A stretch of DNA of 62,474 bases, counting the filler, from Kipferlia bialata (taxonomy: Eukaryota), in NCBI GenBank assembly GCA_003568945.1. It is 3 parts of 3 records of this genome, joined end to end, with 100 filler letters (N's around TTAATTAATTAA, not from the genome) between each part and the next. Parts side by side here need not be neighbours in the genome. Positions count along the whole stretch, not along the records: positions 1 to 30,277 come from BDIP01000125.1; 2 more parts are not named here. The stretch is one strand, 5' to 3'. The notes under the pieces were generated by a model. That model saw only the letters and a list, made by a program, of their open reading frames with translations. It was not told the origin of the DNA and did not search any database. The number at the start of each line of letters is the position of its first letter. Within the stretch, counting starts at the first letter, position 1. The translations under genes were made by a program, and so were the position numbers. This document shows positions 60-51,400 of this stretch, one piece after another.

Positions 60-3000
60 AGCCTGCAGGTACCCACGTCCTATGCTTAACTTCTATATAT
101 TCTCCTTATGTATATACTGCACCCTCCAATCCCCCCTCTGTTCCTCTCCCCCACCCCAGACCTCCCACGGCCTTGAGTTACCTTCGTACATAAGCTTCAT
201 CCTCTAATTCTACATATACATCACACGTCCCACCCCCACCCCAGACCTCCCACGGCCTTGAGCAGCAGATACAGGGATATATATTGTATATCTAAATATT
301 TAGAGTATTCATAGTATTCATAGTACCCCTCTCTCCTATATCTATTCACTCTTTCCCACCCCAGACCTCCCACGGCCTTGAGCAGCAGAAGCACACCCAC
401 TCCGTCACTACACCCTCAGACACCCTGTCGGTCTGTGCATGTGGGGGGGTGGTGGCATCACTTAGAAGGAGGTATAGAGTACCTATACACATACATACAC
501 AGTTTTCCACCTTGTGTTTATGTTTCTTTCTCTCTTTCTTTCTCCCCCCCCCCCCTCACCCCCAGGGGTGCCACCCTCGGCAACAGACGGAGGAACAGAG
601 ACGCACTCCTGTCAAGGTATGTACATAGATCTATCTCTACACACTAATATACTATTACACCCCTCACCCCAGGGGCATCCCCCAGTCCCGTCTGATGAAG
701 CGGGGTGCTGTCCCTGTCTGTGACCTGATAGCAGTGGCACCCAGACAGAGGCACACGGTGGTGGTCAGGGAGGGACTGACTAATGTACGTACTACCTATA
801 TATCTTTTGGTTGCTAATAGTTAGTACCAAGGTTATAGTTGTAAGTATTTAGTGTAAGTACCTTGCTTCATCATAATGGTGGTCAGGGAGGGACTCACTA
901 ACGTATGTGGCAGTGTATGTATATACTATATGTATTCACCAGACCTCCCCCCACCCCCAGGTCCTAGACATTGCTGCCTGGCCCATGTCGTCCAAGAGGA
1001 TATACATACTGCAGGTATGCTATTGTATACCAACTTCTATCACTCTGTGCAATGTATACTATTCTAACCGTTATTGCATTCTATATTTCCATTGGTTCCC
1101 TCACCTCCAGGTCTCTGCCCAGGAGTCCACCTCTGACACTCTGTTCAAGGTCACAGTCCTGGTGGAGAGGCCACTCAGGCAGAAGGTATTGACAGAGCTA
1201 TATAGTATAAATAGTGTGTGTGTATGTTTATATATATTCGTATTCTAGGTTGATACGTGTGTATTGGAGAGGCCACTCAGGCAGAAGGTATTGATAGAGC
1301 TGTATATATTATACACTGTTTGTACATGTTTATGTATTAGAGAGATATGTATATATTGGAGGCCCCTCAGGCAGAAGGTATTGCGAATATGTATATTCAA
1401 GGATACATTCCTACATATTCTGTCTCTGTTGTGGGTGGAAAATGTATGATATGTAAATATACATACATTTCTTTTCCCCACCTCACCCCTCCAGGTCAAG
1501 CAGCTTGTGCAGAATGAGAGATATGGAGACGCTTTGGAGCTGGGGGCAGACCTCGATAGGTACGGTCATATATATACACCGTCCAATACCTCTCTCTATA
1601 CATATCTATGTATATATATCCCTATATCATATACATATTTATAGACGCCCTGGAGCTGGGGGCAGACCTCGATAGGTACTATTCTTTCATATACCGTTGT
1701 ATCTGATACGCATACATTTGTATATGCAATTTGTCTGATCTGGATTGATATCGTTGTATCTAACCAATCAGGTATGAGATTGCCCAGATCTATCCATGTA
1801 TAAATATCATATACCTCTGTGTCTAACCCCCCCAGGTATGAGATTGCCCAGATCAAGGTGTCCCATGCCAGAAGGGTATTCGACACACACCCGGAGGAGG
1901 TGAGGATACATTAATTCGTAATCATATACCCACATGCACTATATGCCTTCCTCTATCTGTCCACTGTGTAATACTCCTGTCACCAATATACACTCAATGT
2001 ATATATCTCTCTGTACTTTTCATATTCTCCCACGCCAGGCCCTCGAGCTGTTCCTATCCACCGTGTCAGATGGGGTCATAGAGCCAGCAGAGGTATGATA
2101 TCTGGCGAGAATGCATTTGTATTAGTATATATGGTGATTGTATTAATAATTCTATAAGTAACATAGGAGAGATAAGTATGTATTAATGGGGTCATAGAGC
2201 CAGCTGAGGTATGTTTGTATATGTATATATGTATTCATCTATAGATTTGGCAGTTGGGTCATGGAGCCAGCTGAGGTATGGTGATATGTGACTGTGTGGG
2301 TGTCTACCATATTCGTCACATTCTTTCCTCTCTAACCCCTTAGGTTGTCAAGCTGTACCTTGACTCTGGCCAGATCCCACCCTTGGTCAGATACCTCGAG
2401 AGGCTGCAGGTATCTTTGGGCATGGGTTGATAATTACTATACCATACTCTCTTCTATAGTCTCGTTAGAAGTATATACTCCAACACAATGTTGTGTTCTT
2501 AAGATAAGTATTTCAACTCTTTGGAGTAATTTTGTCTCACCCCAGGGCGAGAAGGACATTGGCGGTGGCCCCAACCTCACCATGCTCCTACTCAACAGCT
2601 ATGTCAGGAGTGAGCCACAGAAGCTAGGTATGGGGAAGTATGTTAGCTCAACATCCTCATCTCTCTCTCTCTCTCTCTCTCTTGTATTCTAGTCTGACCT
2701 CCAGTCCACTTTATCGAGTCTGCCCAGGACAAGTACATCAAGGACGCAGTCAGGGTGAGTACTGAGTATAACCATGTGTGGGGAGATATTTGTATGTTAC
2801 ATTTGTATATATTCTACCTCCCATTCCAACCATCTTACCCTCCAGAACCGTTCCAGTGCACAGGGTCAGGGACAGGCAGTCGCAAAGTGAGTGAATTATA
2901 GTTGTGTTCGTATCAGTGTGCAGAATATGTCTCTTGCCCCCCGACTTATCACACACACACAAATATATACACATTTCTACCTACCTACCCCAGGCCTGTC

Positions 3001-6000
3001 CTTGACATCGATGTGGCTGTGGAGGTGTGTGCCAGATCAGGAAAGACAGGTACAAGTGTATACTGTTGTATGTCACTCTGACCCTGAACTAACTGTACAA
3101 GGCTTGCCTGTGACCTCGCTGCCTTCTTTGATATGCGTATACTAATACTATACACTCCCTCACTCTCTATATATATACTTACATCAGGCCTTGCCTGTGA
3201 CCTCGCTGCCTTCTTTGACAGACACACCCAGGTTATGGACATACTCACTAGGACACCGGACCTGGTGCCACAGGTACATCCATATTGTATATATATATAT
3301 ATATATATTATCTGATACTGGTGCAGATATACTGATATATATACGCTGATACCGGACCTGGTGTCACAGGTACAGTCGTACAGTATATATATATATATAT
3401 ATATATCTATATATATATATTAACTGATACTGGTGTTTATATACTGATATATATACGTATACCAGACCTGGTGCCACAGGTACAGTCATACTGCATCTCT
3501 CTTTCTTCCCTTCTCTCTTTCCATATGTTTATCCCTGTGTATATCCCTCACCCCCAGGCCGTGATGTACCTGGGTACCCTCTCCCTCAAGGACTGCCACG
3601 AGCAGCTGACACCCAGGCTCAGCACGCTGCTCACACACACACCGGACCAGGTATATAGGTGTATTTGTATATGCAGTGACTGATTAACATAAATACACAA
3701 CGGATCATATTTGGTCAGCCATATATGACTGTCTTTGTGTGTATGTATTTACCTCCTTACCCACCCCAGGTCACCTCTCTGCTGAAGAGACTCTGCACCA
3801 GCTACACCCCAGACTCAGTCGGTGAGTGACCACATTAGTGTTACTGATGCTGCTCTCTGTCTCTCTATCTCTCTCTTTGTCTGTCTCACCTCCAGGCGTG
3901 CTGTCTGGCCTTGAGGTTGATGACAGGCTGTGGGGAAGGGCACTCGTCAGGAGGCACAGGTATTAGATATTGATATAAACGCAAATTCACACATATATAT
4001 ATATATCCCACATACACTATATATCTAAAGTGTGGGGCAGGGTACTCGTGAAGTTGCACAGGTACACACAGTATTGGTATATATAGTAAATGTACATTGT
4101 TCCATCTGACCGTCCCCCTCACCCTCCCAGGGCCAAGGTCCAGTGCCCTGTGGATGAGTTTGAGATAGACCTCTCGGGTCTGGCTCAGGTATATATATGA
4201 ATTTGTGGTATATACGTTGTTCATTGCAACTCATGTGAGTATATTAATGGATACTTGTGCTTATGGCCCACCGCAGGCCGGTCCCCAGGAGAGTGTGTTC
4301 AAGGGAGACCACCTCGATGCGTCATTCTGTGTGCACGAGTACCTGAGGTATACATATATATATATATATATATCTGAGGTAGCCATATATATCTGTATGT
4401 TATATGTGTAAACGAGTACCTGAGGTACAATTCATAAACAGACGTATATTCTATTGTCATATATCTATACATACCTCCTAACCCTAAGGGTGCGTGCCTC
4501 TAGAAGGGAGAGGGTCAGAAGGCAGGCCCAGGAGGCACTCGAGGCAGCTACTCAGGTATATACAAGTATAGAAATTAGCATTCACTGGATCATGGTTAAC
4601 ATGGCTCCAGACCCACCCCCAGGCCTCCGAGGGCAAGGGCCTAATCCCATCAACACATATCACTATACATTGTTAATACGTGTAATACATTAATATTATA
4701 TATATGCATTATGCCTCTAATACCCAAGGCCTCCGAGGGCAAGGGCCTGACCCCTGCCGAGGTTGCCTCTGTCACACCCTCTGCCCTGGAGGAGATATGC
4801 TCAGACACCACCCTGCTGGAGTTCCTGGTGCACGTCATGTGCTACTTCAGGTAAGGGATGCATATGTATATCCACTATATACCCACTATATATCAATACG
4901 TGTTTGTGATTTATTGTGGTAGTCTTACCATCCATGTATATACATCCATATATATACATCCCCACCCCCAGCATGTCCATGTCCAATGATGACGACACCC
5001 GCCCCCTGGACAGTGTCACAGACATGGATGCCACACAGACGGAGGGGGGGGCAAACACTAACAACGAGGTATGTATTTATATATATATATACTCATGAAC
5101 TACGCGATGACCCCCAGGAGTCTGAGGACTGGGGACTCTCTGTGCTGCTGTGGCACTACATCCTGGAGGAGCTCCTCCACCTGTGGAGTGGCCTAGGCAT
5201 GAGTGAGGGCATGAGTGAGGGGGCCCAGGAGACAGAGGAGGACAGCGAGTGTGCGCCACTCGATACAGGTGTGTATTATCGATGGCGAGTGTTGTCGTTG
5301 TATTCATATATGCATCCGTCTAACCCCCTAGGCGATGGCGAGTGGAAGCTTGAGGAGGAGGCCGACCCCTCCACGCATGTCAGTGCCCTGTCAACCCTCA
5401 GTGCCAGTGAGGGTGTCACCACACACGCTGTGCTGGACACACCCCTGCCCAGCGTCAGCATAGACCTCAACAACCCGCACAGGTGTATGCTACTATAAAT
5501 GTATGGATACATATACATAAATAGATACTTATTGTGATATACGAAGACCTCAACAACCCGCACAGGTAGACCTAGATAAGTCTCTCTCTCTCTCTCCCTT
5601 TCTCACCTCCAGTGCCAGGGACAGCTGCAGAGACCTCATCATGGCAATCTTCAAGGTATCGGTGTATGTATAGATATATAGGTTTAAATATAGATAGATA
5701 GATATGTCGACATAGATGAATAGTTGCCCTGGCGTAATACTAATCCATAGGGTGTGATCCCCGCCTCCTTTGATAAGGACCACGCCTGCATCCTGTGCAA
5801 GAGATACGACTTTGCAGACGGACTCGTGTTCCTGCTAGGTATGATAGAGTCAACATATATACACTACATAGGTACAACAGATGGATACGACACATATATA
5901 CAGTATCAGAACACAGTATATTACTCACTCTCCAGGTGCCCTTGGCCAGCACAACGAGGTCATCAGACACCACCTCAGGTATGGGTATAGTCATATATCA

Positions 6001-7985
6001 TATATATCATATTGTATCTCACTCACTGTTATACTTACACCAGGACCGGCAACCATGCCATGGTGTCCCGGATGGTGGTGGAGCACCCCAGGCTGGTGCA
6101 GGAGGTATGATACGAATATACAAATACATGTATATGCCCTATATACCTCTATGTTTTCCTTGCTCATCCTAGTTGTGGCCCGGTGTGCTTAGAGTGTATA
6201 TACACAATGTAGCAATGCCTCTAGTATTTATGCTAACTGTAGGTGTGGCCCGGTGTCCTCAGAGACAAATATCAAGAGCGATATATATATACAATTGTAT
6301 GTATATATGCTATATATACTCACCTCTAGGTGTGGCCCGGTGTCCTTAGGGACATGGTCAAGAGCGATATATATATATAGCATTGTATATATATATATGC
6401 TATATATACTAACCCTAGGTGTGGCCCGGTGTGCTGAGGGACATGGTCAAGGCAGACCTGGGGCCACTCCTCTGTGAGTCAGAGAGGTGGGGGTATATGT
6501 GTATATAACGTATATTTCCATATACATAGTATGTGTGTTCGTATTCAATTACTCCCCCTTCGCAGTGAAACTGAGGTAGGGCCAGCGTATATGCATGTAT
6601 ATTATAAACGTATTAAGAACACCCTACTCACCCCAGAGACAGGGAGAAGGGCGGCGAGGCCGGCAGGGAGAGAGAGAGAGAGAAGCAGCAGGCAGCAGCC
6701 AGACTGGGGACCACACTCCAGGTATTCCATATTCTGTATATTCTGTGTATACCATATGCATACATCTATATATTAGTCACTCACCCCCCAGGCCCTCACC
6801 GGTGCTGGTATTGCCACTGCTGTCAGTGGGATAGACCTGGTCATATCGGCATGCAACGAGGTACACATACAGTACAGTATATAGTATCTTGACACTCATC
6901 CCTAACCCCCCATGGTCCATGCTGCCTCTACCCACCTTCCCTATATAGCCATACAATATAGCATATATAGTACTCTCCTTCATTTCTTAGCCTTACAAGT
7001 AGGTCCAGGCTGCCTCAGCCCCCCCTTCATCGGACAGGAGTGGGGACTTCCCAGTCTCGATGGTGGCAGACCTCATGACCAGTGAGCTCAGGTATATATT
7101 CTCTCTCTCTCTCTCTCCATATATAATGAGTCTCTGATTCTTTATATGTATATATTGACATGCCTCACCCCCAGGATTCTGGACGATGCCATTGATCAGG
7201 CCAGACGTGACCTGGCAGACAGCACGGACCTCGTGGAGAAGGACATGGTATGATATATGTATTGCTACTTATGCACAGTGTATAGTCACTATTTATTCCT
7301 ACTCTCTAACCTAACCACAGGCCACCCTGCGCACCCTGACCACCTCGGGTGTCTATTTCTCTATACATATATATATGTGTGTGATTGTCAATGCATATGT
7401 ACACCACTCACCTTCAGGCCACCCTGCGCACCCTGACCACCTCTGGTGTGTCCTATGATGGCACCATCTGCCAGCAGTGCAACAGAGTGCTGTCCACACC
7501 AGCAGTGCACTGCAGGTGTGTAGTCTGTATGTGTAGTATTGATTCACACATTCACATATACTTTATATATGAACATGTGCATATCCTCCCACACCAGGTG
7601 TGGCCACTCGTACCACTTTGGGTGCTTCATCTCTGAGGGCGGGGAGTGCAGGACATGCGTCAAGAGACTGGACCAGGAGCCACAGAGACCGGGTCTGGAG
7701 CCTAACCCTAGGTATACAGTTGCATAGATGGGAACATAAGTGTGGTATGTGTGTTCCATTGTTCCAGTTCCTCACCCCTCAGGTTCCCCCACACCATCCT
7801 GATTGACAGACTCAGAAGGGCGCCCCTGGCTCAGGTAGGGTGATAGTGTATTTGCTGTACATTCTGAATATAGTAGGATAAACACTTCTTTCTACCACTA
7901 TATCTATCTCCTGTCTCCCCTCACCCCGTAGGCCAAGGTGCAGAGATACTCCACAGAGGACAGTGACAGTGACAGTGATGAGTAG
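60..7985 (+). CDS. VPS11: Vacuolar protein sorting 11 homolog (CORVET/HOPS core), multi-exon, 5' end lies upstream of the window
   Basis: Spliced exons give VVKLYLDSGQIPPLVRYLERLQ...NLTMLLLNSYVR...LDIDVAVEVC, which resembles the Vps11 clathrin-repeat segment (VIxKFLDxQxIxxLxxYLxxL...TxLLLNCY...FDVxxA). A C-terminal RING reads CQQCNRVLSTPAVHCRCGHSYHFGCFISEGGECRTC (7447-7660). Stop TAG at 7983-7985 after ...EDSDSDSDE. Confidence 0.88.
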
Positions 7986-8257
7986 ACGGGTGTTGGATAG
8001 GTCATGGAGTGGCTTGAGAGAGTAAATGTAAACCGTAGTCTGTTGGGCATTGTATGTCACTGTCGTGGAGCTTGTACTAATAATGTGAAAATAAGTGAAT
8101 ACATTAGTAATGTCAATGTAACAGGACAAAAATTCTGGCTTCATCCACACCCTGACACGACTGACTCAATATCTCCTATTTACTCACGATATCCTTGCAC
8201 ATTGTCATATACAGACATATGGTTCACAGTGTCTGTATCCCAAGCAACCCTCTCCAC

Positions 8258-9566
8258 TTACTTGCCGAACACAGTGTCGAGCCTGCCCTGGGGGTCCTAG
8301 GGGTGAGAGGGAGAGAGAGAGAGAGAGACCAAGAAATAGAGGGGCGAGGAGGGGGAGATAGGGACAGAAAGAGTAGCAGAGAGGGGTAGAGCATATATAC
8401 ATACCTGGAGGATAGTCTTGACGAGCATCTCCATGACATCTCCCACGATGAGGTCGCAGAACTTGTTGAAGTCAATGTGGTTGTCGCACTCGTCTGAGGG
8501 GTTAGATTATATGTATATATTTATAAATATTTATATATATGCATGACAACTTATATAAATAGTAAATACAAATATTTACACATAGATATGAGTCAATGTG
8601 GTTGTCGCACTCGTCTGGGGGGTTAGAACGGGGTGAGACGGAGTGTATGCATACTTTCATACTTACACCTCCGTAAATACATGTGTGTATATAGGTATTA
8701 ATTCATATAAACATCTACCCACCGGACACGGCACGCACAACGGCGTATGGGGCACCCCAGGTGTAGCAGACCTAGGGTGAGTGATATAGTAAATACAATC
8801 ATAGTAATTTCAGCTCAGTCATACTATTATTGACCCATTACATCTACCCTACCTGGGCCATGGCAGCCTTCCATCTCGGCCACATAGGCATACATATATA
8901 TGTGTATAAACAATACACATGAGACTACTACTCCCTCTACACATCATACCTGGGCCATGGCAGCTCCCTCCATCTCGGCCACATAGGCATCGGGGATGGC
9001 ACTCATGATGCCGTCCCTGGGGGGTGAGGGGTATAGTTACACATGTATGAAGAATATATACACAAAGACTATACACTATATACTATGTATATAGGCCCAA
9101 CCTGGTGGCTGCGGTGGCCACGAACTTGTCACCGGTGACAATGACTCCCTTGTGCACCTGGGGTAAGAGTATGCGTGTATACACTATATAAATATATATA
9201 TATATATAGTGGAGGAGTAGTTAATGAATACAGGGTATAGAACATTCACAAAAGGTACCGTAGGCAGTCTAGTGAGTGTATGTGTGTACCTTCGGGACTG
9301 TGAATACACAAATATACACAATTGCTAATTACTGATATTGTATATATAATGGTCACTGCTCCATACCTTGGGTGCTGTGATTCCGAGCTCCTCAGAGACA
9401 CCGGGCTTGGCAAGAACCTGGGGTGAGGGTGTGGGATATATCGATGCTCATATACATATTTACACTGCTGACTATATATTATGTAGACCATACGTTGATA
9501 TACATAGATATTGACATATACACGCATACACCTTCCTGAGCTCCTGGGAGGGCATTACTGTATGAT

Positions 9567-9618
<52 letters not shown>

Positions 9619-9823
9619 TCACCTTCTTGAACTCCCAACATATATACCAATGCATGTACCTTCTTGAACTCCTGGGACAGGACCAGTATCAATATATACA
9701 CACACATATATATACGAATATACATCCATACACCAATATATATATATATATACCTTCTTGAACTCCTGGGACTGGACCAGGGAGGAGGCGGCATCGAACA
9801 TGAACTGGGTCACCTCCTGGGGG

Positions 9824-9858
<35 letters not shown>

Positions 9859-10612
9859 GCCACTCAACGTACGGGCTTGACTGGGAGCCTGGCGATGTCG
9901 AGGGAGGGCAGGATGAGCTTGTCCATGAGGGGGGAGCAGTCCATGTCGTGCTGCACAAGCTCGGTGCCAATCACAATGTCACCTACAAGGTGAGGGTGGC
10001 AGGTATAGGTGTACTATATACACATGATGCACTATGGTAGTGGTGGGGGGGGGGGGGGTACATACTACACTGGGGAACCCGTACCGATCTTGCATCCGTT
10101 GAAGAGGCCACCGGCGCTGCCGACGAAGATGATGGCGTCGCACTCGTACCTGGGGGGTCAGTAAGGAGAGAAGTCATTATAACACAGTATATCTGCACTC
10201 TCTCCCACATATATAGGTATATCGTGTATCTAGATGCCCTACCTGTCAAGGAGCACGGTGGTGGAGATGGCAGCACAGACCTGGAGTGAGAGAACATATA
10301 TAGATATATATACAGAGAGATAGGGGGTACTCTGGGAGTAGAGGAAGATAGTTCAACACAGTCGACACACCTTTCCGATGTCGGACCTGCACACAGTGAC
10401 GCGCCTGTCGTAGATCTCGCCGTCAACGTAGGTGACGCCTCCGCGGACCTCCTAGAGATAAGAGGCAATGGGACAGAGTGTAGTTACAGAAAGATACGGA
10501 ACCAATCCAATCTCACGCATTCCCCCACCTTGTTGGCTCCGTCAACCATGTGGGCGATCTTCTCGTACTCCCTAGTGGTAGCGGTCATGATTCCAAGCTT
10601 GAGTCCGGCCAT
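8258..10612 (-). CDS. mtnN: 5'-methylthioadenosine/S-adenosylhomocysteine nucleosidase (PNP/UDP phosphorylase family), about 12 exons
   Basis: Spliced product reads MAGLKLGIMTATTREY...SDIGKVCAAISTTVLLDRYECDAIIFVGSAGGL...KIGDIVIGTELVQHDMD...GVIVTGDKFVA...AEMEGAAMAQVC...PYAVVRAVSD...DFNKF. This contains the GIGKV-like, GSAGGL, QHD, TGDxF, EMEGAA and RAxSD motifs of MTAN. Confidence 0.92.
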
Positions 10613-10760
10613 CTTTGATAGTCTGCAAGAGAGGGGGAGAGAGAGGTGAAGCCAGGCGTTGCGCAACCGGAAAAGGCGTTGATGCAATTACGTTGAAAAA
10701 GTTGCCCAACGTTGTCATTTTGGTTGCTCCAGACGCAACCCTCCCAAGCACTAAACCAGC
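10613..10760. promoter_or_regulatory. Probable bidirectional promoter between the MTA/SAH nucleosidase and LSm4 genes
   Basis: Two start codons face away from each other about 148 bp apart: CAT at 10610-10612 and ATG at 10761. Confidence 0.6.
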
Positions 10761-11035
10761 ATGGTAAGTGGTGTTGTGGCCCATATTGTAGGATACAATG
10801 AGTATAGAACCACCTAGTCTCACCCTCAGCTTCCCATTGAGCTCCTTTCTGGAGCCAGAGACTGCGAAGTGGTACGTATAGCGTGTCAAAGCCTCTCTTG
10901 TGTAACGCTGTTTCCTCTGTTGTTTCTCTGCTAGATGATCTTTGTGGACTTTAGTCTATCACTCACTGCCTGTGTTCCCATACCTCCCCCCTGACCCCCA
11001 GCTCCTAGAGCTCAAGACAGAGCAGACAGTCACAG
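10761..11035 (+). CDS. LSM4: LSm4-like Sm-fold protein, 5' part only (the rest is presumably in or beyond the N gap)
   Basis: Exons ATG (10761-10763) | 10830-10871 | 11002-11035 have GT/AG boundaries and give MLPIELLSGARDCEVLLELKTEQTVTG. This matches the LSm4 N-terminus pattern MLPLxLLxxAxxxPxLVELKxGETxNG. Missed by the ORF track. Confidence 0.75.
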
Positions 11036-11161
11036 GTGGGCGGCATATACATATACACACACACTCTACCTCTAGCATCTACATCAGATCTGGTTCCTGG
11101 TGTACTGCTCTGTTTATAGGGATATATTCTATGGTCGCGGCTCCTCTAGTGTTATATTGCC

Positions 11162-11193
<32 letters not shown>

Positions 11194-11208
11194 ACCCCCC
11201 TCCCTCCT

Positions 11209-12128
11209 NNNNNNNNNNNNNNNNNNNNNNNNNNNNNNNNNNNNNNNNNNNNNNNNNNNNNNNNNNNNNNNNNNNNNNNNNNNNNNNNNNNNNNNNNNNN
11301 NNNNNNNNNNNNNNNNNNNNNNNNNNNNNNNNNNNNNNNNNNNNNNNNNNNNNNNNNNNNNNNNNNNNNNNNNNNNNNNNNNNNNNNNNNNNNNNNNNNN
11401 NNNNNNNNNNNNNNNNNNNNNNNNNNNNNNNNNNNNNNNNNNNNNNNNNNNNNNNNNNNNNNNNNNNNNNNNNNNNNNNNNNNNNNNNNNNNNNNNNNNN
11501 NNNNNNNNNNNNNNNNNNNNNNNNNNNNNNNNNNNNNNNNNNNNNNNNNNNNNNNNNNNNNNNNNNNNNNNNNNNNNNNNNNNNNNNNNNNNNNNNNNNN
11601 NNNNNNNNNNNNNNNNNNNNNNNNNNNNNNNNNNNNNNNNNNNNNNNNNNNNNNNNNNNNNNNNNNNNNNNNNNNNNNNNNNNNNNNNNNNNNNNNNNNN
11701 NNNNNNNNNNNNNNNNNNNNNNNNNNNNNNNNNNNNNNNNNNNNNNNNNNNNNNNNNNNNNNNNNNNNNNNNNNNNNNNNNNNNNNNNNNNNNNNNNNNN
11801 NNNNNNNNNNNNNNNNNNNNNNNNNNNNNNNNNNNNNNNNNNNNNNNNNNNNNNNNNNNNNNNNNNNNNNNNNNNNNNNNNNNNNNNNNNNNNNNNNNNN
11901 NNNNNNNNNNNNNNNNNNNNNNNNNNNNNNNNNNNNNNNNNNNNNNNNNNNNNNNNNNNNNNNNNNNNNNNNNNNNNNNNNNNNNNNNNNNNNNNNNNNN
12001 NNNNNNNNNNNNNNNNNNNNNNNNNNNNNNNNNNNNNNNNNNNNNNNNNNNNNNNNNNNNNNNNNNNNNNNNNNNNNNNNNNNNNNNNNNNNNNNNNNNN
12101 NNNNNNNNNNNNNNNNNNNNNNNNNNNN
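11209..12128. other. Assembly gap flanked by poly-C and poly-G
   Basis: N run. Confidence 0.99.
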
Positions 12129-12131
12129 GAA

Positions 12132-12173
<42 letters not shown>

Positions 12174-13315
12174 GGGGTTATGCCAAGAAAATACATACAT
12201 AGTCAGAGCAGTTATAGATAGAGGGGGATGATGGGGGAGACAGAGAGAGAGAGACAAGAAACGTGCAGTGGCTGAATACGGGCAGATACGACGACATTAT
12301 GAGTCATATTGGAAAGAGAGAGGGTACAATCAATAGAATCAAAAGCATGAGGAGAGACAATGCACTCTGAAACTGTAGTGATGGAAGAGTAGCGGGAGGT
12401 AAGAGGAAAATGCAAACAGATGTACGGAAAGTAATAGAGATAGATAAAAGTGGATATACTATCTCCAAGAGCAGTAATGTACATATATATACCCTGAAGT
12501 GTGTATCTATGCTTTAAGTATGCATCGAATGTGGAGTGTGCGAGTTATAGAGAGAGAGAGTATCAGCGAGATAGTACAGTGCACTACTGAGTGCCTAATC
12601 AAAGCTGAAACAGACAGAATCCCACTGTCCTTGCATGAAGATATGCATAACTTATAAGTATTCCAATGAAGGCGCATGTGAAGAGAGAGTGGGTGCCTGA
12701 TATGCAATCAGTGCAAGCGTGTGAAATAGACACACATTAGTATATATCTAGTGTCCACACTAACTATATCGCGACAATACACCACCACCGTACCATTGCT
12801 GAGTGATCCTCTCTCCCCCTCTCTCTCTACCAAGACCAGTCTACCTAAAGAGTAGGCGTTTTACAGCTCACAAGTGAAGTGCTAATCCAACTGTCTGGTT
12901 TGGTGCACTGATTCAAAAACTCACTAAAGGGGCTAGCGACTTGGAGCATGGTGTGAAATGGCGCGGTGGAAACCGCACCTCAGACTGTACCTATATAGCA
13001 TCGTATCATATATATATGTATATGTATATACTGCGTCACTCTATGTTTGTTATTACTTAGAGTTCAGGCGTTCTCACCTACTCTCGAAGGGAAGTATAGG
13101 TCCTACATGGCCCAATGGGAGAAAGACACATACTAATGCTACAATACGAACACCACATGTACAAAATGTCTATTTGTTAACAATTCCACGCCATTTCCGA
13201 GCTCGGCTGATACAAAGACCCAGCCGCTAAATCAGACAATACGCTCCCTCTCTCTCTCTCTCTCTCTCTCTTCTTTCTCTCATTTGGCACGCGATACACA
13301 CGCTCACCAAGTACA

Positions 13316-13363
<48 letters not shown>

Positions 13364-13473
13364 CTCTCTGGTTCTCAGGCAAACACACACACACACCAAT
13401 AGATCACTGGTTAGTGGAAGGTAAGTACACCTGATACCACACCTGTAATGCATCTCCTAGACCCGTAGTTCCC

Positions 13474-14530
13474 TTAGTTCAGGTACTGAAGGGGCAGGTA
13501 CCAGGATAGGTACTCGGGGTCAAAGGCAAACTCAGCCTCGTCATAGTTGAGGTCAGGGATGGTGTTCATCCTGCGAGATAAGAGAATAAAGGGTGTAAAG
13601 GAAAAATAATACAAACAATACAATATATATATAATAATAAAAATACATAATAATAATAATAATATATATATATAGGATTGGATAATGAAAATCTGTCAAT
13701 ATCAATAATATATTTATTCATATTCAGTTATGGGTCTAGAGAGAGAGAGAGAGAGAGTGAGATACCTAGGTGCCTCGTGGTTCATGGTTGTGAGCATCCA
13801 CACTAATTATACTATTATACATACACTATATCCAAATATATACACTATACTATAAATATACACTATACACTACACTTTATACCTAGGTGCCTCGTGGTTC
13901 ATGGTTGTGAGCATCCATACATACAATATATAACATCATGTTGCAGATACAATTAGGGGTCTAGTGAGAGAGAGAGAGATACCTTGGGGCCTCGTGGTTC
14001 ATGGTTGTGAGCATCCATGGTGCAACGGCATAGATGCCAAGGAGAGACTGCCACTGGGTGTAAAAAGGGTGTAGAGAGAGAGAGNNNNNNNCCAAGGAGA
14101 GACTGCCACTGGGTGTAAAAAGGGTGTAGAGAGAGAGAGAGAGAGAAGGCATAGATGCCAAGGAGAGACTGCCACTGGGTGTAAAAGGGTGTAGAGGAAG
14201 AAAGAGAGAGAGAGAGTAGTACCTGTATGAACCTTGGGCTAGCTGTGTTAACATCACCCACTGTATACATACACATAATACAAGTACAATAAGGGGTCTA
14301 GGGAGAGAAAGAGAGAGAGTAGTACCTGCATAAACATTGGGCTAGCAGTGTTAACATCCCCAACAGTGGATGTGATCAGAGTGGGGGGTGTCACAGTGTA
14401 CATCTGGAGAGCGGCCCAGTTGAACTGAGGGATTAGGGGTGTAGGGGGAGAGAATCAAGGGTCTAGAGGGAGAGAGAGAAGGGTCTGGAGGAATAAAAAA
14501 TGAAACTATATATATATGTATATATATATG

Positions 14531-27150: not shown

Positions 27151-30100
27151 CCTTGCATACATATATATATATATATCCTTGCATCATTGCATGAATGGGA
27201 CTGCCTCTGCCATTGGGAGGTCATCTACCATATGTATACATACCTAAGTATATATAATATATAATATATATATATAATATGATACATATATATGTATATA
27301 TCAATACCTGAATGGAACTGCCTCTGCCATTGGAAGGTCACTGTTACCAGCCTGGAGATCAAGAGAGGCATTGGACTACACATTCAGAACTTTTCAGGCA
27401 CGCCATTGGCTACAATACACACACACATATATATGTCTATATTTATATGATTGTCTATATATTATCTATATATATATGCATATATATCCCTACCTTCCTA
27501 GGGAGTATGCCTCGATTGGCCACAAAGGCTATGTACTAATTCTCTCTCTCTCTCTCTCATTCTCTCTCTCCATATATATATCTATATATATTAATGAATA
27601 TGTACATATCCATACCTTCCTAGGCAGTATGGCCCCATTGGCCACAAAGGCCACACCCCCTGCAGACACAGTCTGGCTGGGGGTGAGATATCTACTTATA
27701 TATGGGATATATACATAGAGATTGATATGGTGGGCTATGCTATGATAAATAGGCCACACCGCCTACAGACACAGTCTGGCTGGGATAAAGGGTATGTATA
27801 TAGAGTGTATATATAGATAGAGAATGGTATGATGGTGGGAATGTGACATATGATATGGGTCACACCCCCTGCAGACACAGTCTGGCNNNNTGGGAATGTG
27901 ACATATGATATGGGTCACACCCCCTGCAGACACAGTCTGGCTGGGGGCCATTAATGTTATGTATAAGATATAAGTATATAAAATCCTACAAATGCATACA
28001 ATTCCGCTCTAACAGTACTTCTTCGCATCTCTCACTCTATGTATACCTTCTGAGCGACACTGCGTTCTCCTTGGTCCTGACACCTCTTATCCAACAACAG
28101 ATACAATAATAATATACGTATATACTACAGAAGTACTGAATAATAGTAATATATGTATATATATGTGTGTATATGTATACCTTCTGAGTGACACTGCGTT
28201 CTCCTTGGTCCTGACAGCCAGGGCACCGGCAGCGGCCTGCATTAATATATGAGTATATACATACATATATATATATAGAAAGAGAGAGAGAGGGAGAGAG
28301 AGAGATGCTTGGTCCTGACAGAAAGGGCACCGGCAGCGGCCTGGTGGTTAGTATATATATATATGAGTATATATACAGAGAGAGAGAGGTGCAAGGGCAC
28401 CGGCATATTGTTACATGTCTATATCTATCTAACAATACATGCATACTGTAAGTGAGAGTGTGTGATGCTAGGGTAGCAGCAGCACCCTGCTAGGATCTGG
28501 TGGTACAATAGCAATATAGTGTACATTCAGATGAATATGTCGGCACCCCCCATCAGTGAATATCGGCAGTCTGCCCCCTCTCTATATGCATGTAGTATAT
28601 ATACCGTATCTCCCCACACCAGCGCCCACTGCAGTGCATAGGCCACTCTCTCGCTGTCTATATATATAAATGTCAATATATATATAACATACATATAAAT
28701 ATATACATTCATACCTTATCCCCCCACACCAGTGCCCACTGCAGTGCCTGGGGCAGTCTCTCTCCCTCTCTCTCTCTCTCTCTCTCAATATATACATTCA
28801 TATCGATATATGTACCTTATCCCCCCATACTAGTGCCCACTGCAGTGCCTGGGGCAGGTGGTCACACACGCCCAGGGCAGCGGCATTGCCAGCTATGCTC
28901 CTATAGTGAGATACATATACATATATATATATGAGTAGAGAGAGAGAGAGAGAGAGAGAGCGCGAGAGAGAGAGAGAATGGTCACACCCAGGGCAGCGGC
29001 ATTGCCTGCAATGCTCCTAGCGTGTGAGACATACTAGTAACCTGATAACTATTTACATAAGTATATATAGATATGTAGATATATATATATATACATATAT
29101 ACTCTATATACCTAGCGTATGCCGTTGCCACAGAGTAGAATCAAAACCAAGACATGTATATGGTTCACATACGAATATATACCCCTCGTACGCAGGTGCT
29201 GCACTGTAGAATGAATACCAAGCCAGATAATAGATACACTTATAGTATATACCTTCCATATGCAGGTGCCGCATAGTAGAACCTGGCTGTGACTGCACCC
29301 TCAGCAGAGACAGTCACACAGGCACGCCTAAGGACCTCCTGGCCTGAAATAAGGGTGTAGAGGGAGAGAGAGAGAGAGACAGTCACACAGGCACGTCTAA
29401 GGACCTCCTGGCTTATGGGTGAGAGGGGTCAGAGGGAGAGAGAGAGTGTGTGTGTGTGTGTGAAGGACCTCATGGCCTGGAATAAGGGTGTAGAGAGAGA
29501 GTTAACCAGGCATCAGTACCACTCTATATATGAAACATACCCGGTGTGTCACTGTTGAAGTAGCCTCCCTTGGGTCCGTCTGGCTCCCTGATGCCCTTGA
29601 GGGCAGTGGACAGGTGCATGGCCTATACATAAGTATATAAGTATATTAGTATATATGTATACTCATATATATAGTATTCATTCACTGATGTCCTTGTGGG
29701 CAGTGGAAAGGTGCATGGCCTAGGGCATAAGGGTGGGTCTATACCCAACTCTATGAACATGTATACAGTAAATAGCAATCGATATACATACACTACTCTG
29801 CTGTCCTTCAGAGCAGAGTTCAATGGCGAGTCTTCAGCTCAGCAGGCTGCATTTAAGGATGTGAATATATACAAAAGAGAGAGATTTAGTCTACTCTCCA
29901 AGGTTGAAAGGTAAGTGCAGCTCTTATGCCACTTCCACATCAATGAAAAACCTAATACCATATCATACAATCACATACCAGGAAGTCTGCTGCAGCTATC
30001 CTCTGATCATCGGTGGATCTGGCCTGGGGGTGAGATGTGTGTAAAGTATAGATGTTACTATTCAGAGGAGATGAACAAATAGTGATCATGAATGTATATG

Positions 30101-30258
30101 AACAATACAATATCCTCCACAGGTATTTACACAGTCTGGAGAGGCCGTCTGAAATGCAGTACATCATGTAACACCCACAACAACAATACAATCAGACATG
30201 AATATGGTATTATACCTCTGCCGGTATGCCCACTGTCTGTGGCGGCAGTCTGGCCTCA
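23910..30258 (-). CDS. ABC_ATPase-family P-loop protein (bacterial 'predicted ABC-class ATPase', MRB1590-like), 5' truncated by the scaffold end and apparently 3' truncated
   Basis: Spliced motifs: RIAAADFL, PGQEVLRRAC, ARFYYAAPAYGR, VAFVANGAILPRK, GCTLLVGGGFHGKSTLLRALETGVYDHRPGDGRE (Walker A), KVRAEDGRSV, FSTQNASGSTSQA, LLLDEDTSAMNLLVRD (Walker B), EPIVPL. All are characteristic of this family. Confidence 0.9.
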
Positions 30259-30277
30259 AGGAGAGATGTATATATAT

Positions 30278-30377
30278 NNNNNNNNNNNNNNNNNNNNNNN
30301 NNNNNNNNNNNNNNNNNNNNNTTAATTAATTAANNNNNNNNNNNNNNNNNNNNNNNNNNNNNNNNNNNNNNNNNNNN
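30278..30377. other. Artificial scaffold-concatenation spacer
   Basis: 44 N + TTAATTAATTAA (stop codons in all six frames) + 44 N = 100 bp. Identical to 53900-53999. Confidence 0.97.
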
Positions 30378-39623: not shown

Positions 39624-39809
39624 GTGTCCGTAACCACAGCCAGATAGTGATCAAATAGAACATATGTTGAGTGTGTAGGAGATGTACTTTCTAGCTCTCT
39701 TAGTACTTGATCTATGTCAGTAATCCATATAGGTACGCTAACGGAGTGAAAACTCTTCAGTGATACACCTGAACCTGTCTATTCTTGCTGCCCAACATAA
39801 GAGAAAAAG

Positions 39810-42368: not shown

Positions 42369-42431
42369 ATAGTGTGTCTCCCGTTTCTACCTCCAAATCA
42401 TGCCCAATGCACATTGTACCCTGACCCCCAG

Positions 42432-48400: not shown

Positions 48401-51400
48401 GACACTGACCTCACCTCCACCTGTGAGTGTGTGCTTGTGCCAGCCCACCTGTCCGACCTGGCCCTCTCCTGGTTCCCCTCTGTTGACACTGTAGACACCC
48501 TCGGTGTTGATGTTGGTGTGTCCTTCCCCATCTACAGCAACTGGCTGGACCCTTATGCAGGTAGTATGAGAGTATGTGTATGTAGTCGTAGTATCATATA
48601 CATCCATTGAATGTGCCATTCTCTCCCCTTGACCTATAGGCAAGGCCGAGTTCCTGGCCGTGTGGAACGAGGCTGTGCGTGTCTATTGGGCAGACTCAGA
48701 CTGCACATCCACCACAGAGGTAGGCTCATTGGCAGAGAATAGCATAGTCTGTTTGGGACACAAATAAGAATTATCCTCTCTGTCTAATCGTCAGGGCTTT
48801 GTCCAGGCCTGCAAGGACTCCCAGTTCAACATGTCTAACGTGTTCTCCGACAGTGTGTGCCAGACCATGTGCACCAACTCCCAGACCAATGCAGGTGGGG
48901 AGTATCTGTGAAGGAGTCTGCCAACCCCTTCTAATCTAACCCAGGTGTCACAACGAGCACCGACATCAACACCCTCATTGCTGCTGCCCAGACTAGGGTT
49001 GCTCCTCTCCTTACATCCACAGACCCCGCAGGACTCCTCCGGACTGCCATTGACTGGGCTCAGGTACACCCGCATTAGACACTCATTGTCTCTTGTGACG
49101 TTGACAGACCCACTACTTCACCCGCTATACTCATACACCCTCTCTCCCTCTGACTTCAGGTTGAGTTTGCTGTGTCTGTTGACGACACCCTCACTACATC
49201 AGCCGGCAGTGCCTCTGATGCAGCCATGTACAACGAGTCCGGCTTTACCATTGACATGGTGAATGACATCATGGGATACTTCAGCACCCTGGTCGGAAGG
49301 GACATCACAGTCAGGTGGGGCATGCTACATATGTGTATGGGTTAGGTTATGTCTCTTAAGTTTACCCTGACTATACACTCCATACTCCCCTCACCCTCCC
49401 AGATGGACCCCCCTGCAGAGTGACGTTGTGAGCACCTTTGCCGATGGGTACAACCCCAGGGCGTCCTGCTTCTCAGCCGGGGTGGGTGCATCCGACAGTG
49501 CCGACTCAGACTACCTAGGTGGGTGCATTAGTGTATATTATGAATGTGTCACTGAGTCACGCATGAACCCGTGTTTCCTCCTCACCGTTCAGGTGTCTTT
49601 GCTGGCGCCTCCTTCCTCCTGGATGAGATTGCAGTGGGCACTGTGTCGGTGAGTCAGGGTCTTTTGACATACATTGAAGATACCTCAATTGATCTATTCT
49701 CCCTCACGTTCTCTTATCACAGATCGATATATTGCAAGATACAAACGATGCGCCTCTCCTGGGTGACAGTGGTAGCCTACCCGCATACCTCCTCACCACC
49801 GCTGCCAACAAGGACAACGCCGAGCTTGTTGCCCTCCTAGACGGGGGGGATGTCACAGTGGTGACCGAGATGGGGGGCACTGCCATAGGGTCAGGTATCA
49901 CCAATCTCATTGGTCTGTATCCACTGCTAATGAAATAGCCTCAACGTGCCAAGTTGTCCCCCTCTGACTGCCAGTGCTTGAGGCCGCCCTGTACTGTATG
50001 CAGCTCAAGATGGAGGTCTCCTACGACTGTGCCTATCTGGGCCCTCTGCCCGAGGTGACCCCCGCCTCCTCCATGCTGGACAGCATGGGTATCGGCACCA
50101 CATCCATCGAGACCCAGCCCCTGATGGCGCCCTTCATGCCCGTGGTCCACTCAGACTATGACACAGAGGAGACATCCCTCGACCCAGACCACTCGGCTTG
50201 GGTCGGAGCAGGTAGGGGCCTATGTATGTATGTGCAAGTGACGTACTTGTGTCTATATCCGTATGTGTCATTCTTACAGAAACCCCCTGACCCATAGTGA
50301 ACCGTGCCATTGTCGAGCTCCAGTCCTTCGGCCATGTCAACAACCTGTATGTGGGGACAGTACTCAACGTCACACCTGGATACAACCCCAAGGTGGGGAG
50401 AATGTCTCATCTACCAACCGATATGCTGAAGTGTTCTACCAACCTTTCTTACCCCCCAGTCTCTCTATGCCTGGCCCGCCCTCTCCCCTGTGACTGGCAA
50501 CACCGATGACCTCCTGACACGCTTTGTCAGCACAGGTGTGGTACCCGTTGCCAGGAACACTGACCTCATCGACGACATCGGAGTCACCCTCTTCCAGGTA
50601 TCATCTGTCTCTATTATTATGATACTGACACTGATACTGGTACTGGTACTGAGTCACCCTCTTCCAGGTATAGTATCAATCGTCTTCCAGGTATTTTCTC
50701 TTCCCAAGTTGTTCGTTCTACTTGCTCATGTATGTCTCTTTGCTTACCTCAGGATGTTGTCGACTATGTCCTGTGCCACTACACCAATGACCCCACTGCC
50801 TCGGTAAGGACACATGTGGATATAGATGCTGAAACACATGAGTTATATGAGTGGATCACAAGCTCTGTGTAGATAACTCTCTGCCCAACACCTCTCTGAC
50901 TCTGCAGGCCGAGGTGCGTGTTGTGTCTGCCGGTGCCGGTGACTACACCGATGCCGAGGATGTCCTGGACCTTGTGTCCAATGGCAATGTGGCCATGATG
51001 GACAGCACAACCCTGGCAGACAGCGAGAGGTGGGGTGGGGCATTAAGGGCATTGACTCCCATTACTGTGTAGTATGCGGTATCTGACCCCAGGCGTGTTG
51101 TGTATGGGTTCACTGCCCCCATCGGCACCTCCACTCTTGTGGCACTACCTGTCAACCCAGACGGAGGTACGCAGTGTGTATACACAGTATCATGTACGTC
51201 TTGGGTATGTGTACTGTATCTGACACCCAGACACCGCTGAGTGCTGGGGCCCTGAGGCTACATCCTATCCTGAGGTCTTTGACTACTGGGTGAACTATGA
51301 CTCAGACTCCATGGACAGGTGGGGATGCGCTAGGTCCTGGGTTTGTGAATGTGGATATATACCCCCTCCTCAATCTTACCCCAGTGTGACCTATGCCGAT

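What the first reader, a model, noticed from the sequence alone, without database searches (positions are those of the whole stretch)
760..28220. Echo copies diverge like protein-coding sequence (mostly synonymous or conservative changes) although they sit in introns
Seen by hand comparison in the exon's reading frame. 761 vs 878: CTG ACT AAT vs CTC ACT AAC. 1528 vs 1643: GCT TTG vs GCC CTG. 6171-6440: GTG CTG AGG vs GTC CTT AGG vs GTC CTC AGA vs GTG CTT AGA (all V-L-R). 13981 vs 13767 and 13881: GCC CCA vs GCA CCT. 14324 vs 14221: 6 of 7 differences at third positions. 17461 vs 17292: GTG CCA vs GTC CCC. 26700 vs 26539: CAT/CTG/ATT vs CAC/CTC/ATC. Replacements are often conservative (SQEFKK vs SQELRK at 9530; K to R and L to V at 23130). 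Exceptions exist (ATA to ATG at 2260, CCA to TCA at 3364, a CAG to TAG at 23133). A neutrally decaying intronic copy should not respect the codon frame this strongly. Inference: the copies come from divergent functional alleles (unequal recombination or templated repair), or they cycle back into the exon by array contraction or gene conversion, or they are a haplotype-mixing artefact. My examples were picked by eye and are not a statistical test.
Basis: partly seen in the sequence, partly recalled or inferred. Interest (0 to 1): 0.88.

Follow-up and report, generated by a model that had tools for sequence, protein, structure and literature searches.

The report
Introns stacked with displaced allele fragments
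In one region of a free-living protist genome, about half of the exons have a spare copy of one end sitting in the next intron; these spliced-out copies differ from the exon mostly at silent codon positions, likely because copy and exon are two formerly working alleles that DNA repair placed side by side, which would make a single genome a record of past genetic exchange.

Summary
Observation confirmed and statistically solid. The DNA is Kipferlia bialata. In scaffold 1 (1-30277), 48 of 91 exons carry half-exon 'echoes': exon tail plus donor downstream, or acceptor plus exon head upstream (90 pairs kept of 97). The other two scaffolds have 2 in 114 predicted exons.

Echo and exon differ at 74/449 four-fold but 49/1582 zero-fold sites. 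That ratio of 0.19 compares with 0.52 simulated for a constrained exon plus neutral copy (one echo per exon end, p=1e-5).

Read contigs at full depth bridge 18 of 24 pairs tested, and spliced RNA contigs skip them, so haplotype mixing is unlikely. Splice signals stay near consensus while the flanking intron is mostly unalignable.

Best reading (0.55): a break inside an exon is repaired from a divergent allele, and the old exon end is left behind as the echo. No second allele was seen, so that step is inferred. Not found in print or in earlier scan notes.

The parts
365..7982 (+). Gene A: VPS11 (partial), 37 exons, 20 echo pairs kept
   Evidence: P0001 named VPS11 [Kipferlia bialata], mapped exon by exon; RNA contig offsets match exons 3-37
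877..902 (+). Tail echo of exon 759-784 (2 silent differences), followed by its own GT donor
   Evidence: inside DNA contig 570-2503
6173..6451 (+). Array of three acceptor+head echoes (6173, 6243, 6330) before exon 6419; three adjacent codons (V-L-R) give three mutually incompatible silent splits
   Evidence: inside DNA contig 4383-7088
8262..10612 (-). Gene B: nucleoside phosphorylase-family enzyme (MTA/SAH nucleosidase-like, label recalled), 12 exons, 6 echo pairs, no silent bias
   Evidence: weak PF01048 hit E=0.019; RNA joints 8493-8723, 8769-8948, 9415-9752 skip all six
8853..8891 (-). Tail echo of exon 8950-9016 with a 2-nt deletion, so not an intact reading frame
   Evidence: sequence
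13474..21887 (-). Gene C: LBP/BPI/CETP-family protein, 22 exons, 32 echo pairs, ratio 0.12
   Evidence: P0005; 491 of 507 residues match, plus one extra 48-nt exon
13766..14018 (-). Two tail echoes (13766, 13883) sharing GCA CCT where the exon has GCC CCA
14223..14367 (-). Exon tail 14326-14367 and echo 14223-14264: 7 differences, 6 at third positions, 5 silent
15635..15830 (-). 64-nt tail echo with GCA TCC vs GCT AGC (Ala-Ser kept across a serine codon-family switch)
20495..20865 (-). 48-nt exon 20818-20865 (absent from the deposited protein) with three tail echoes
22334..23342 (-). Gene E: 90-aa four-exon ORF, cystatin-like by recalled motifs only, 3 echo pairs
   Evidence: no Pfam or PDB hit for the exons tried
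23910..30254 (-). Gene D: ABC-class ATPase (PF09818), 16 exons, truncated at both ends, 29 echo pairs, ratio 0.28
   Evidence: 50% identity over 271 aa to a Vibrio protein
24231..24707 (-). Largest array: four tail echoes of exon 24674-24716
28605..29016 (-). Exon 28816-28900 with one head echo (3 of 3 silent) and two tail echoes
50651..50667 (+). One of only two echoes outside scaffold 1 (identical 17-nt tail)
55271..55287 (-). Second echo outside scaffold 1 (identical 17-nt tail)

Best explanation
Each echo is a tandem copy of one end of an exon with its splice site, spliced out of the dominant mRNA in the two genes checked, and echo and exon likely descend from two different working alleles. 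Proposed steps. (1, inferred) A break falls inside an exon in a cell holding a divergent homolog whose introns no longer align. (2, inferred) One end invades the homolog through the only shared sequence, the rest of the exon, and copies the donor's exon end, splice site and 25-140 nt of donor intron. (3, inferred) Annealing to the other end fails and the ends are joined directly, possibly by polymerase theta; an unequal exchange between homologs gives the same local product. (4, shown) The result is exon + intron stub + old exon end + full intron; only tail-downstream and head-upstream echoes occur. (5, inferred) The echo has one splice site only, is ignored by splicing and then decays neutrally. 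Repeated events push older echoes outward. Silent differences are then mostly allelic divergence (about 0.10-0.13 per four-fold site), and replacement differences mostly later decay (0.03).
For: Ratio 0.19-0.20 vs 0.52 for the single-lineage null. Exon/near/far triplets: four-fold private changes are 9/4/7 of 85 sites, compatible with three equally distant sources (p=0.39). Zero-fold private changes are 0/4/10 of 289, a decay ladder (p=0.004). A single lineage predicts about 1.2 exon-only four-fold changes, not 9 (p=0.0004). Nearest echo is less diverged than the farthest in 10 of 13 untied arrays (p=0.046). Zero-fold differences are GC>AT biased (0.031 vs 0.012 per site) while four-fold counts are balanced (23 vs 29), as between two coding sequences. 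Echo donors keep GT in 42/44 and acceptors AG in 32/35, yet only 20 of 79 flanks beat the best unrelated intron flank and 2 of 79 look about 85% identical. Echo splice sites score near real ones: donor 5.7 vs 6.0, intronic GT 3.3; acceptor 5.5 vs 7.0, intronic AG -4.8. Echoes almost never take the whole exon: 4 of 83 leave under 15 nt, 24 expected, as if exon homology were needed for invasion. One array fails the four-gamete test. K. bialata is listed with PolQ, Spo11, four Dmc1 and five Rad52 entries and no Rad51A; metamonads lack Ku (PMC8516963). Failed SDSA followed by polymerase-theta joining makes tandem duplications in C. elegans (PMC8654963).
Against: No second allele was observed. The DNA contigs show no other letters in the exons of 560-10700 (contigs drop variants). 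Two metagenome scans confirmed none of 40 and none of 36 pattern matches. Ploidy and sex are unknown. Echo-vs-echo ratio is 0.38; variants found in only some echoes beat neutrality (p=0.005) but not the 2:1 null (p=0.25). Most of the excess sits on the exon branch, which a four-fold faster exon silent rate would also give. Gene B shows no bias. The junction test fits 0-2 nt of microhomology and not 3-4 nt, so there is no clear polymerase-theta scar. Intron flanks differ far more (about half of positions) than four-fold sites (16%), which needs much faster intron evolution or later exon-limited conversion. Short echoes could also result from erosion. The four-gamete result is one array and could be recurrent mutation. 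Perfect young duplicates would collapse in a short-read assembly, so their scarcity is not evidence.
Confidence: 0.55

Rival explanations
1. Echoes are born as ordinary same-chromosome or sister-chromatid duplicates. Later gene conversion from divergent alleles rewrites the exon, or refreshes the echo, only within the shared exon sequence, while the intron flanks drift apart. It still requires divergent alleles but changes when they enter.
For: Exon-only four-fold changes are the largest class (9 of 85), and all 9 variants shared by every echo of an array are silent-type (8 four-fold, 1 two-fold, 0 zero-fold). Flank similarity does not track exon-part similarity (rho -0.05). 15 identical echoes of 18 nt or more have no near-identical flank.
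Against: Echo-private changes are also enriched at four-fold sites (11/170 vs 14/578, p=0.015), though the far branch can contribute up to twofold of that. Echo splice sites differ in sequence yet stay near consensus, which plain decay would erode.
Confidence: 0.2
2. Single lineage, no alleles: the exon's silent sites change about four times faster than the echo, through exon-targeted mutagenesis or selection that freezes the echo at the nucleotide level (for example as a splicing element).
For: Simulation with a 4x exon silent rate reproduces the ratio (0.19, range 0.13-0.27). The excess is mainly on the exon branch. No second allele was seen.
Against: Echo and exon share sequence context and transcript and lie about 100 nt apart. 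Intron bases next to the echo are the most diverged of all. Echoes carry deletions and a stop and are nearly absent from the other scaffolds. Removing CpG sites leaves the bias. Incompatible splits at 6173-6451.
Confidence: 0.13
3. Echoes are relics of whole-exon duplicates that were once mutually exclusive coding exons, or are still used in minor isoforms or by recursive splicing.
For: It would explain coding-type constraint directly. Spacing is intron-sized (median 100 nt). Exons with tail echoes end in AG somewhat more often (28/31 vs 39/55, p=0.057).
Against: All 83 anchored echoes are tail-downstream (45) or head-upstream (38); none has the two other geometries that broken whole-exon duplicates would leave. 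No echo covers more than 79% of its exon. 0 of 45 tail echoes have an acceptor at their start. Head-echo exons are not enriched for a GT start (5/30 vs 19/56). RNA contigs skip them in genes A and B.
Confidence: 0.06
4. The assembly placed two haplotypes in tandem, and the echoes are simply the other allele's reads.
For: Short-read draft, microsatellite-rich introns. Two perfect 55-nt duplicates flank N gaps. Genes C-E were not checked against reads. The DNA run may be the source of the window.
Against: A separate contig build of the reads crosses 18 of 24 pairs in 560-10700 with no other letters or gaps, at depth 402-460, like other contigs of the run (434-600). Those 18 pairs alone give ratio 0.08, p=4e-4. 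The 6 not bridged are cut at microsatellites. Arrays hold up to five versions.
Confidence: 0.04

Closest known systems
Tandem duplications from failed SDSA completed by polymerase theta (C. elegans helq-1; PMC8654963, passages read)
   Same: Direct tandem duplication of the stretch copied during repair synthesis; sizes start at about 100 bp; the proposed two-step route.
   Different: There the template is described as the sister, so the copies start identical; it is a mutant phenotype with median size about 1 kb and microhomology scars. Here units are about 100 nt, centred on splice junctions, stacked in a wild genome, and copy and original differ like alleles; no clear microhomology.
One-sided invasion / HR coupled to end joining (Belmaaza and Chartrand 1994, seen only as a reference-list entry in PMC4888836; Richardson and Jasin 2000, recalled)
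   Same: Repair begins on a homologous template and ends by non-homologous joining, leaving a partial duplication.
   Different: Known from induced breaks in reporters. I found no report of it as a natural, recurrent process filling introns with allelic exon ends.
Intron gain with direct repeats in Daphnia (PMC4202315, passages read) and intron gain by tandem duplication (listing only)
   Same: Break repair leaves a repeat of an exon terminus inside an intron.
   Different: Daphnia repeats are 4-12 bp and mark new introns. Echoes are 12-64 nt, create no new intron in the transcripts checked, and show codon-patterned divergence.
Mutually exclusive duplicated exons (e.g. SCN-alpha exon 5a/5b; abstract start only)
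   Same: Neighbouring exon-like copies that differ mostly at silent sites.
   Different: Those are whole exons with both splice sites and are translated. Echoes have one splice site and are skipped.
High silent diversity in microbial eukaryotes (Paramecium, PMC11334263, passages read without figures; Caenorhabditis brenneri and Schizophyllum commune at roughly 0.1-0.2, recalled)
   Same: The 0.10-0.13 four-fold divergence needed is in the range I recall for hyperdiverse species.
   Different: Measured there across isolates; here only inferred from one genome.

Membership tests
Failed-SDSA / polymerase-theta tandem duplication | Head-to-tail direct duplication of about 100 bp or more | tested here: met
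   Direct copies, median spacing 100 nt
Failed-SDSA / polymerase-theta tandem duplication | Microhomology or templated insertions at the junction | tested here: inconclusive
   Outer-base test fits 0-2 nt, not 3-4 nt; junctions may be eroded
Failed-SDSA / polymerase-theta tandem duplication | Copies identical at birth (sister template) | tested here: not met
   Divergence pattern rejects identical birth plus equal-rate change; flanks unalignable. Later conversion could rescue it.
Failed-SDSA / polymerase-theta tandem duplication | Dependence on POLQ | not testable with these tools
   Gene listed as present in K. bialata (PMC8516963 supplement)
Inter-homolog one-sided invasion | Copied tract matches an allele on the homolog | tested here: inconclusive
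   No second allele in contigs or metagenomes; indirect signatures only
Mutually exclusive duplicated exons | Each copy has both acceptor and donor | tested here: not met
   0/45 tail echoes with an acceptor; 6/38 head echoes with a donor-like GT within 4 nt
Mutually exclusive duplicated exons | Copies used in mRNA | tested here: not met
   Dominant RNA contigs of genes A and B skip them; minor isoforms and genes C-E untested
Intron gain by duplication or staggered break | The repeat creates a new spliced intron | tested here: not met
   RNA joints run from the real donor to the real acceptor across the echoes
Recursive splicing units | AG|GT ratchet points with their own branch point | tested here: inconclusive
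   AG ends 28/31 vs 39/55 (p=0.057); GT starts not enriched; intermediates not testable
Haplotype-mixing assembly artefact | Junctions unsupported by reads, or half depth | tested here: not met
   18 of 24 pairs inside single full-depth contigs; genes C-E not tested

The most novel reading that the evidence does not exclude
An 'allele treadmill': in a protist without Ku and Rad51A, repair between highly divergent homologs repeatedly installs a new allele's exon end and demotes the resident end into the intron. The introns of a single genome then hold an ordered stack of former alleles, from which silent diversity (about 0.1), past outcrossing and repair-tract lengths can be read without population sampling. 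Tolerance of consensus-strength half-exon splice sites would also imply exon definition in a short-intron protist with a reduced spliceosome.
Probability: 0.4. Interest if true: 0.88.

Novelty: new variant of a known kind. Interest (0 to 1): 0.74.

Why it matters
Whether and how fornicates (the group that holds Giardia) exchange genes is a long-standing question (own knowledge). If echoes are displaced alleles, one genome would give evidence of inter-homolog recombination between very divergent alleles in a free-living member, plus an estimate of its diversity. It would also show a route of intron growth and turnover that recycles exon ends, and a natural test bed for how splice sites are chosen when strong decoys lie 100 nt away. 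Even if the allele step fails, intronic copies obeying the genetic code well beyond the neutral expectation need an explanation.

Tried and rejected
Plain constrained-exon plus neutral-echo null: rejected. A CpG or transition-bias explanation: rejected; the bias holds without CpG sites and for kappa 1-10 (p up to 0.005), and the four-fold vs zero-fold test does not depend on kappa. Selection of examples by eye: rejected, the 72 unquoted pairs give 0.23. Paralog as the source: unlikely; each exon query returned one protein, no variant letters were laid on gene A/B exons, and four of five unrelated genes show the pattern.

Led nowhere: no whole genome is held, so genome-wide prevalence is unknown. 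No run was on record as RNA; one guessed RNA run proved spliced. Metagenome scans found no relative. The protein search for gene D found none of 3 candidates. The representative-protein search was never run. Read support for 19309-30277 was not obtained, which leaves genes C-E without contig or RNA confirmation; their frames rest on the deposited protein (C), bacterial homology (D) and an open frame (E). Gene-finder output wrongly used some echoes as exons and was curated by hand.

Dropped before counting: 7 of 97 pairs; 11 of 90 in the flank test (unanchored, N, or too few controls).

Literature: searches (listings) showed no description of this pattern. The scan's own notes held nothing relevant.
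Full report
Setting. The window is three scaffolds joined by N-TTAATTAATTAA-N linkers (1-30277, 30378-53899, 54000-62474). An exon query returned VPS11 of Kipferlia bialata on a 30277-base contig, and another a K. bialata LBP/BPI protein. I had guessed the species from recalled intron motifs before these calls. I curated 91 exons in five genes of scaffold 1. A: VPS11, mapped from the deposited protein. B: phosphorylase family, boundaries from the gene finder and 8 displayed RNA joints. C: LBP/BPI. D: PF09818 ATPase, 50% identical to a Vibrio protein over 271 aa. E: a 90-aa ORF without a family hit. All frames are open and all junctions GT-AG.

The echoes. Frame-blind ungapped search of each exon against its two flanking introns gave 97 pairs. 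90 were kept, on 48 of 91 exons. Median length is 28 nt, overall identity 94% (155 differences in 2542 aligned bases), median spacing 100 nt, with arrays of up to four echoes. Of the 90, 45 are exon tails downstream of their exon and 38 exon heads upstream; the other 7 are offset or broken by indels. None is a head downstream or a tail upstream. The intron stub between a real splice site and the echo is 24-142 nt. The same search over 114 predicted exons of the other two scaffolds found 2. Scaffold 1 has 42.7 bp/kb of (TA)4+ against 2.1 and 9.7.

Are they real DNA? Run X1 (may be the source of the window, so it is a re-assembly and not an independent sample) gives contigs over 570-2503, 2692-3278, 3429-4342, 4383-7088, 7129-8296 and 8341-9560 with no other letters or gaps at depth 402-460; other contigs of the run show 434-600. 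18 of the 24 pairs in the laid stretch lie inside one contig. Run X2 gives spliced contigs. In gene B three joints cross all six echo pairs. In gene A the record offsets between displayed pieces (1210, 219, 151, 868, 166 nt, my arithmetic) equal the annotated exon sums from exon 3 to 37, so no echo is included. Contigs cannot exclude minor isoforms. Genes C-E have no such check. Two perfect 55-nt duplicates beside N gaps look like scaffolding overlaps, and pairs abutting N were dropped.

Codon test. Unique differences fall 28/23/83 on positions 1/2/3; 79 are silent and 55 not; pN/pS is 0.23-0.25 with an exon bootstrap of 0.17-0.36. Over all kept pairs, four-fold sites differ at 74/449 and zero-fold at 49/1582. 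With one echo per exon end it is 52/330 vs 36/1162, p=1.1e-5 against the 2:1 expectation of a fully constrained exon and a neutral echo. A simulation including detection gave 0.52 on average and never under 0.27 in 2000 runs. By gene: A 0.14, C 0.12, D 0.28, E 0.19 (not significant alone), B no bias on 87 sites. Replacements are only slightly conservative (p=0.04).

What kind of history gives this? Within one haplotype an echo is unselected while it is an echo, so contraction or conversion between echo and own exon leaves the ratio near 0.5 (inference). A lower ratio needs either that most of the divergence accrued while both copies were coding, on different haplotypes, or unequal rates (about 4x in the exon). 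Several features fit the first. In exon/near/far triplets, four-fold private changes are 9/4/7 of 85, while zero-fold ones are 0/4/10 of 289: roughly equal silent distances plus an age ladder of decay. Zero-fold differences lean GC>AT as decay should, and four-fold ones are balanced. Echo donors and acceptors keep GT (42/44) and AG (32/35) and score close to real sites, yet match their own exon's donor at only 51-67% of positions +4 to +6, and the flanks beyond are mostly no more alike than unrelated introns. At 6173-6451 three adjacent codons split the four copies in three incompatible ways. Against: echo-echo divergence (0.38) is not significantly under 0.5; the clearest excess is on the exon branch; no second allele was seen in contigs or in two metagenome scans; and intron flanks are more diverged than silent sites by a margin that needs its own explanation.

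Mechanism. I favour a break inside an exon, one-ended copying from a divergent homolog through the donor's splice site into its intron, failed annealing, and direct joining. This gives the two observed geometries, puts the newest echo next to the exon (10 of 13 untied arrays), leaves a stub without a second splice site, and predicts that part of the exon stays uncopied as the invasion homology (4 of 83 leave under 15 nt, 24 expected; erosion could also do this). PMC8516963 (passages, section 8 and rows of supplement file 6 read; supplement file 1 is a scan and was not searchable) reports no Ku in metamonads, loss of Rad51A in fornicates, and PolQ, Spo11, Dmc1 and Rad52 entries for K. bialata. 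PMC8654963 (passages) shows failed SDSA plus polymerase theta producing tandem duplications in C. elegans. My junction test shows no more than 0-2 nt of microhomology, so the joining enzyme is not established, and an unequal crossover between homologs is not distinguishable here. That TA-rich repeats promote breaks or stall synthesis is recalled and untested. Shown: tandem arrangement, skipping in A and B, geometry, codon bias, flank divergence. Inferred: allelic origin, break position, repair pathway, exon definition.

Comparison and novelty. It works like HR-initiated, end-joined tandem duplication, but fails the identical-at-birth feature of the sister-templated case, and fails membership of mutually exclusive exons and of intron gain by duplication (Daphnia repeats 4-12 bp; PMC4202315 passages). 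The passages I read in the genome paper (PMC5874029) report 124,912 introns and a SPAdes short-read assembly and say nothing on ploidy or such repeats; PMC6679479 (passages) reports a reduced spliceosome of 87 proteins. Searches listed no paper describing the pattern; subscription papers are not covered. Earlier scan notes held nothing on it. Verdict: real, strange and testable; a new variant of a known repair outcome, with the allele step at about 0.75 across the two allele-based readings and 0.55 for the specific route.

Noticed in passing
window 1-30277 vs 30378-62474: Echoes and TA/GA microsatellites are confined almost wholly to scaffold 1 (48/91 exons vs 2/114 predicted; intron GC 0.39 vs 0.47), suggesting a regional, perhaps recombination- or break-prone, compartment.
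   Followed up: partly
window 23453-23512 (-): The ABC-class ATPase gene stops after exon 23910-23964; what looks like the start of its next exon ends in a CT repeat, followed by an unrelated cystatin-like ORF. Possible mis-join or truncation.
   Followed up: no
window 23910-30254 (-): A bacterial-type PF09818 ATPase (50% identical to a Vibrio protein) carrying 15 introns; possible lateral acquisition, not tested by phylogeny.
   Followed up: partly
window 20818-20865 (-): In-frame 48-nt exon missing from the deposited LBP/BPI protein P0005; it has three tail echoes.
   Followed up: partly
window 14037-14139 and 27836-27941: Perfect 55-nt-period duplicates across short N gaps, likely k-mer overlap artefacts of scaffolding.
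   Followed up: partly
window 9866-10089: One DNA contig at half depth (226 vs about 430) with G>A at 10029 next to a G run: a heterozygous intron site or a homopolymer effect.
   Followed up: no
window 13440-20900 (-): Introns of gene C end in a recurring (CT)n-ACACCC/AGCCCC-TTATT-CAG motif unlike the CTCACCCCCAG-type acceptors of gene A, shared across many introns of the gene.
   Followed up: no
window 30278-30377 and 53900-53999: Artificial N-TTAATTAATTAA-N linkers join unrelated scaffolds.
   Followed up: yes
window 34600-39650 (+): Intron-rich gene with FG-like repeats, nucleoporin-like by eye; and 42380-53193 (+), a long multi-exon gene ending in Gly-X-Y repeats and a hydrophobic segment.
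   Followed up: no
window 19772-20009 (-): In this array the intron stubs also repeat with an unusual non-microsatellite motif (period about 104), one of the few places where flanks remain alignable.
   Followed up: no
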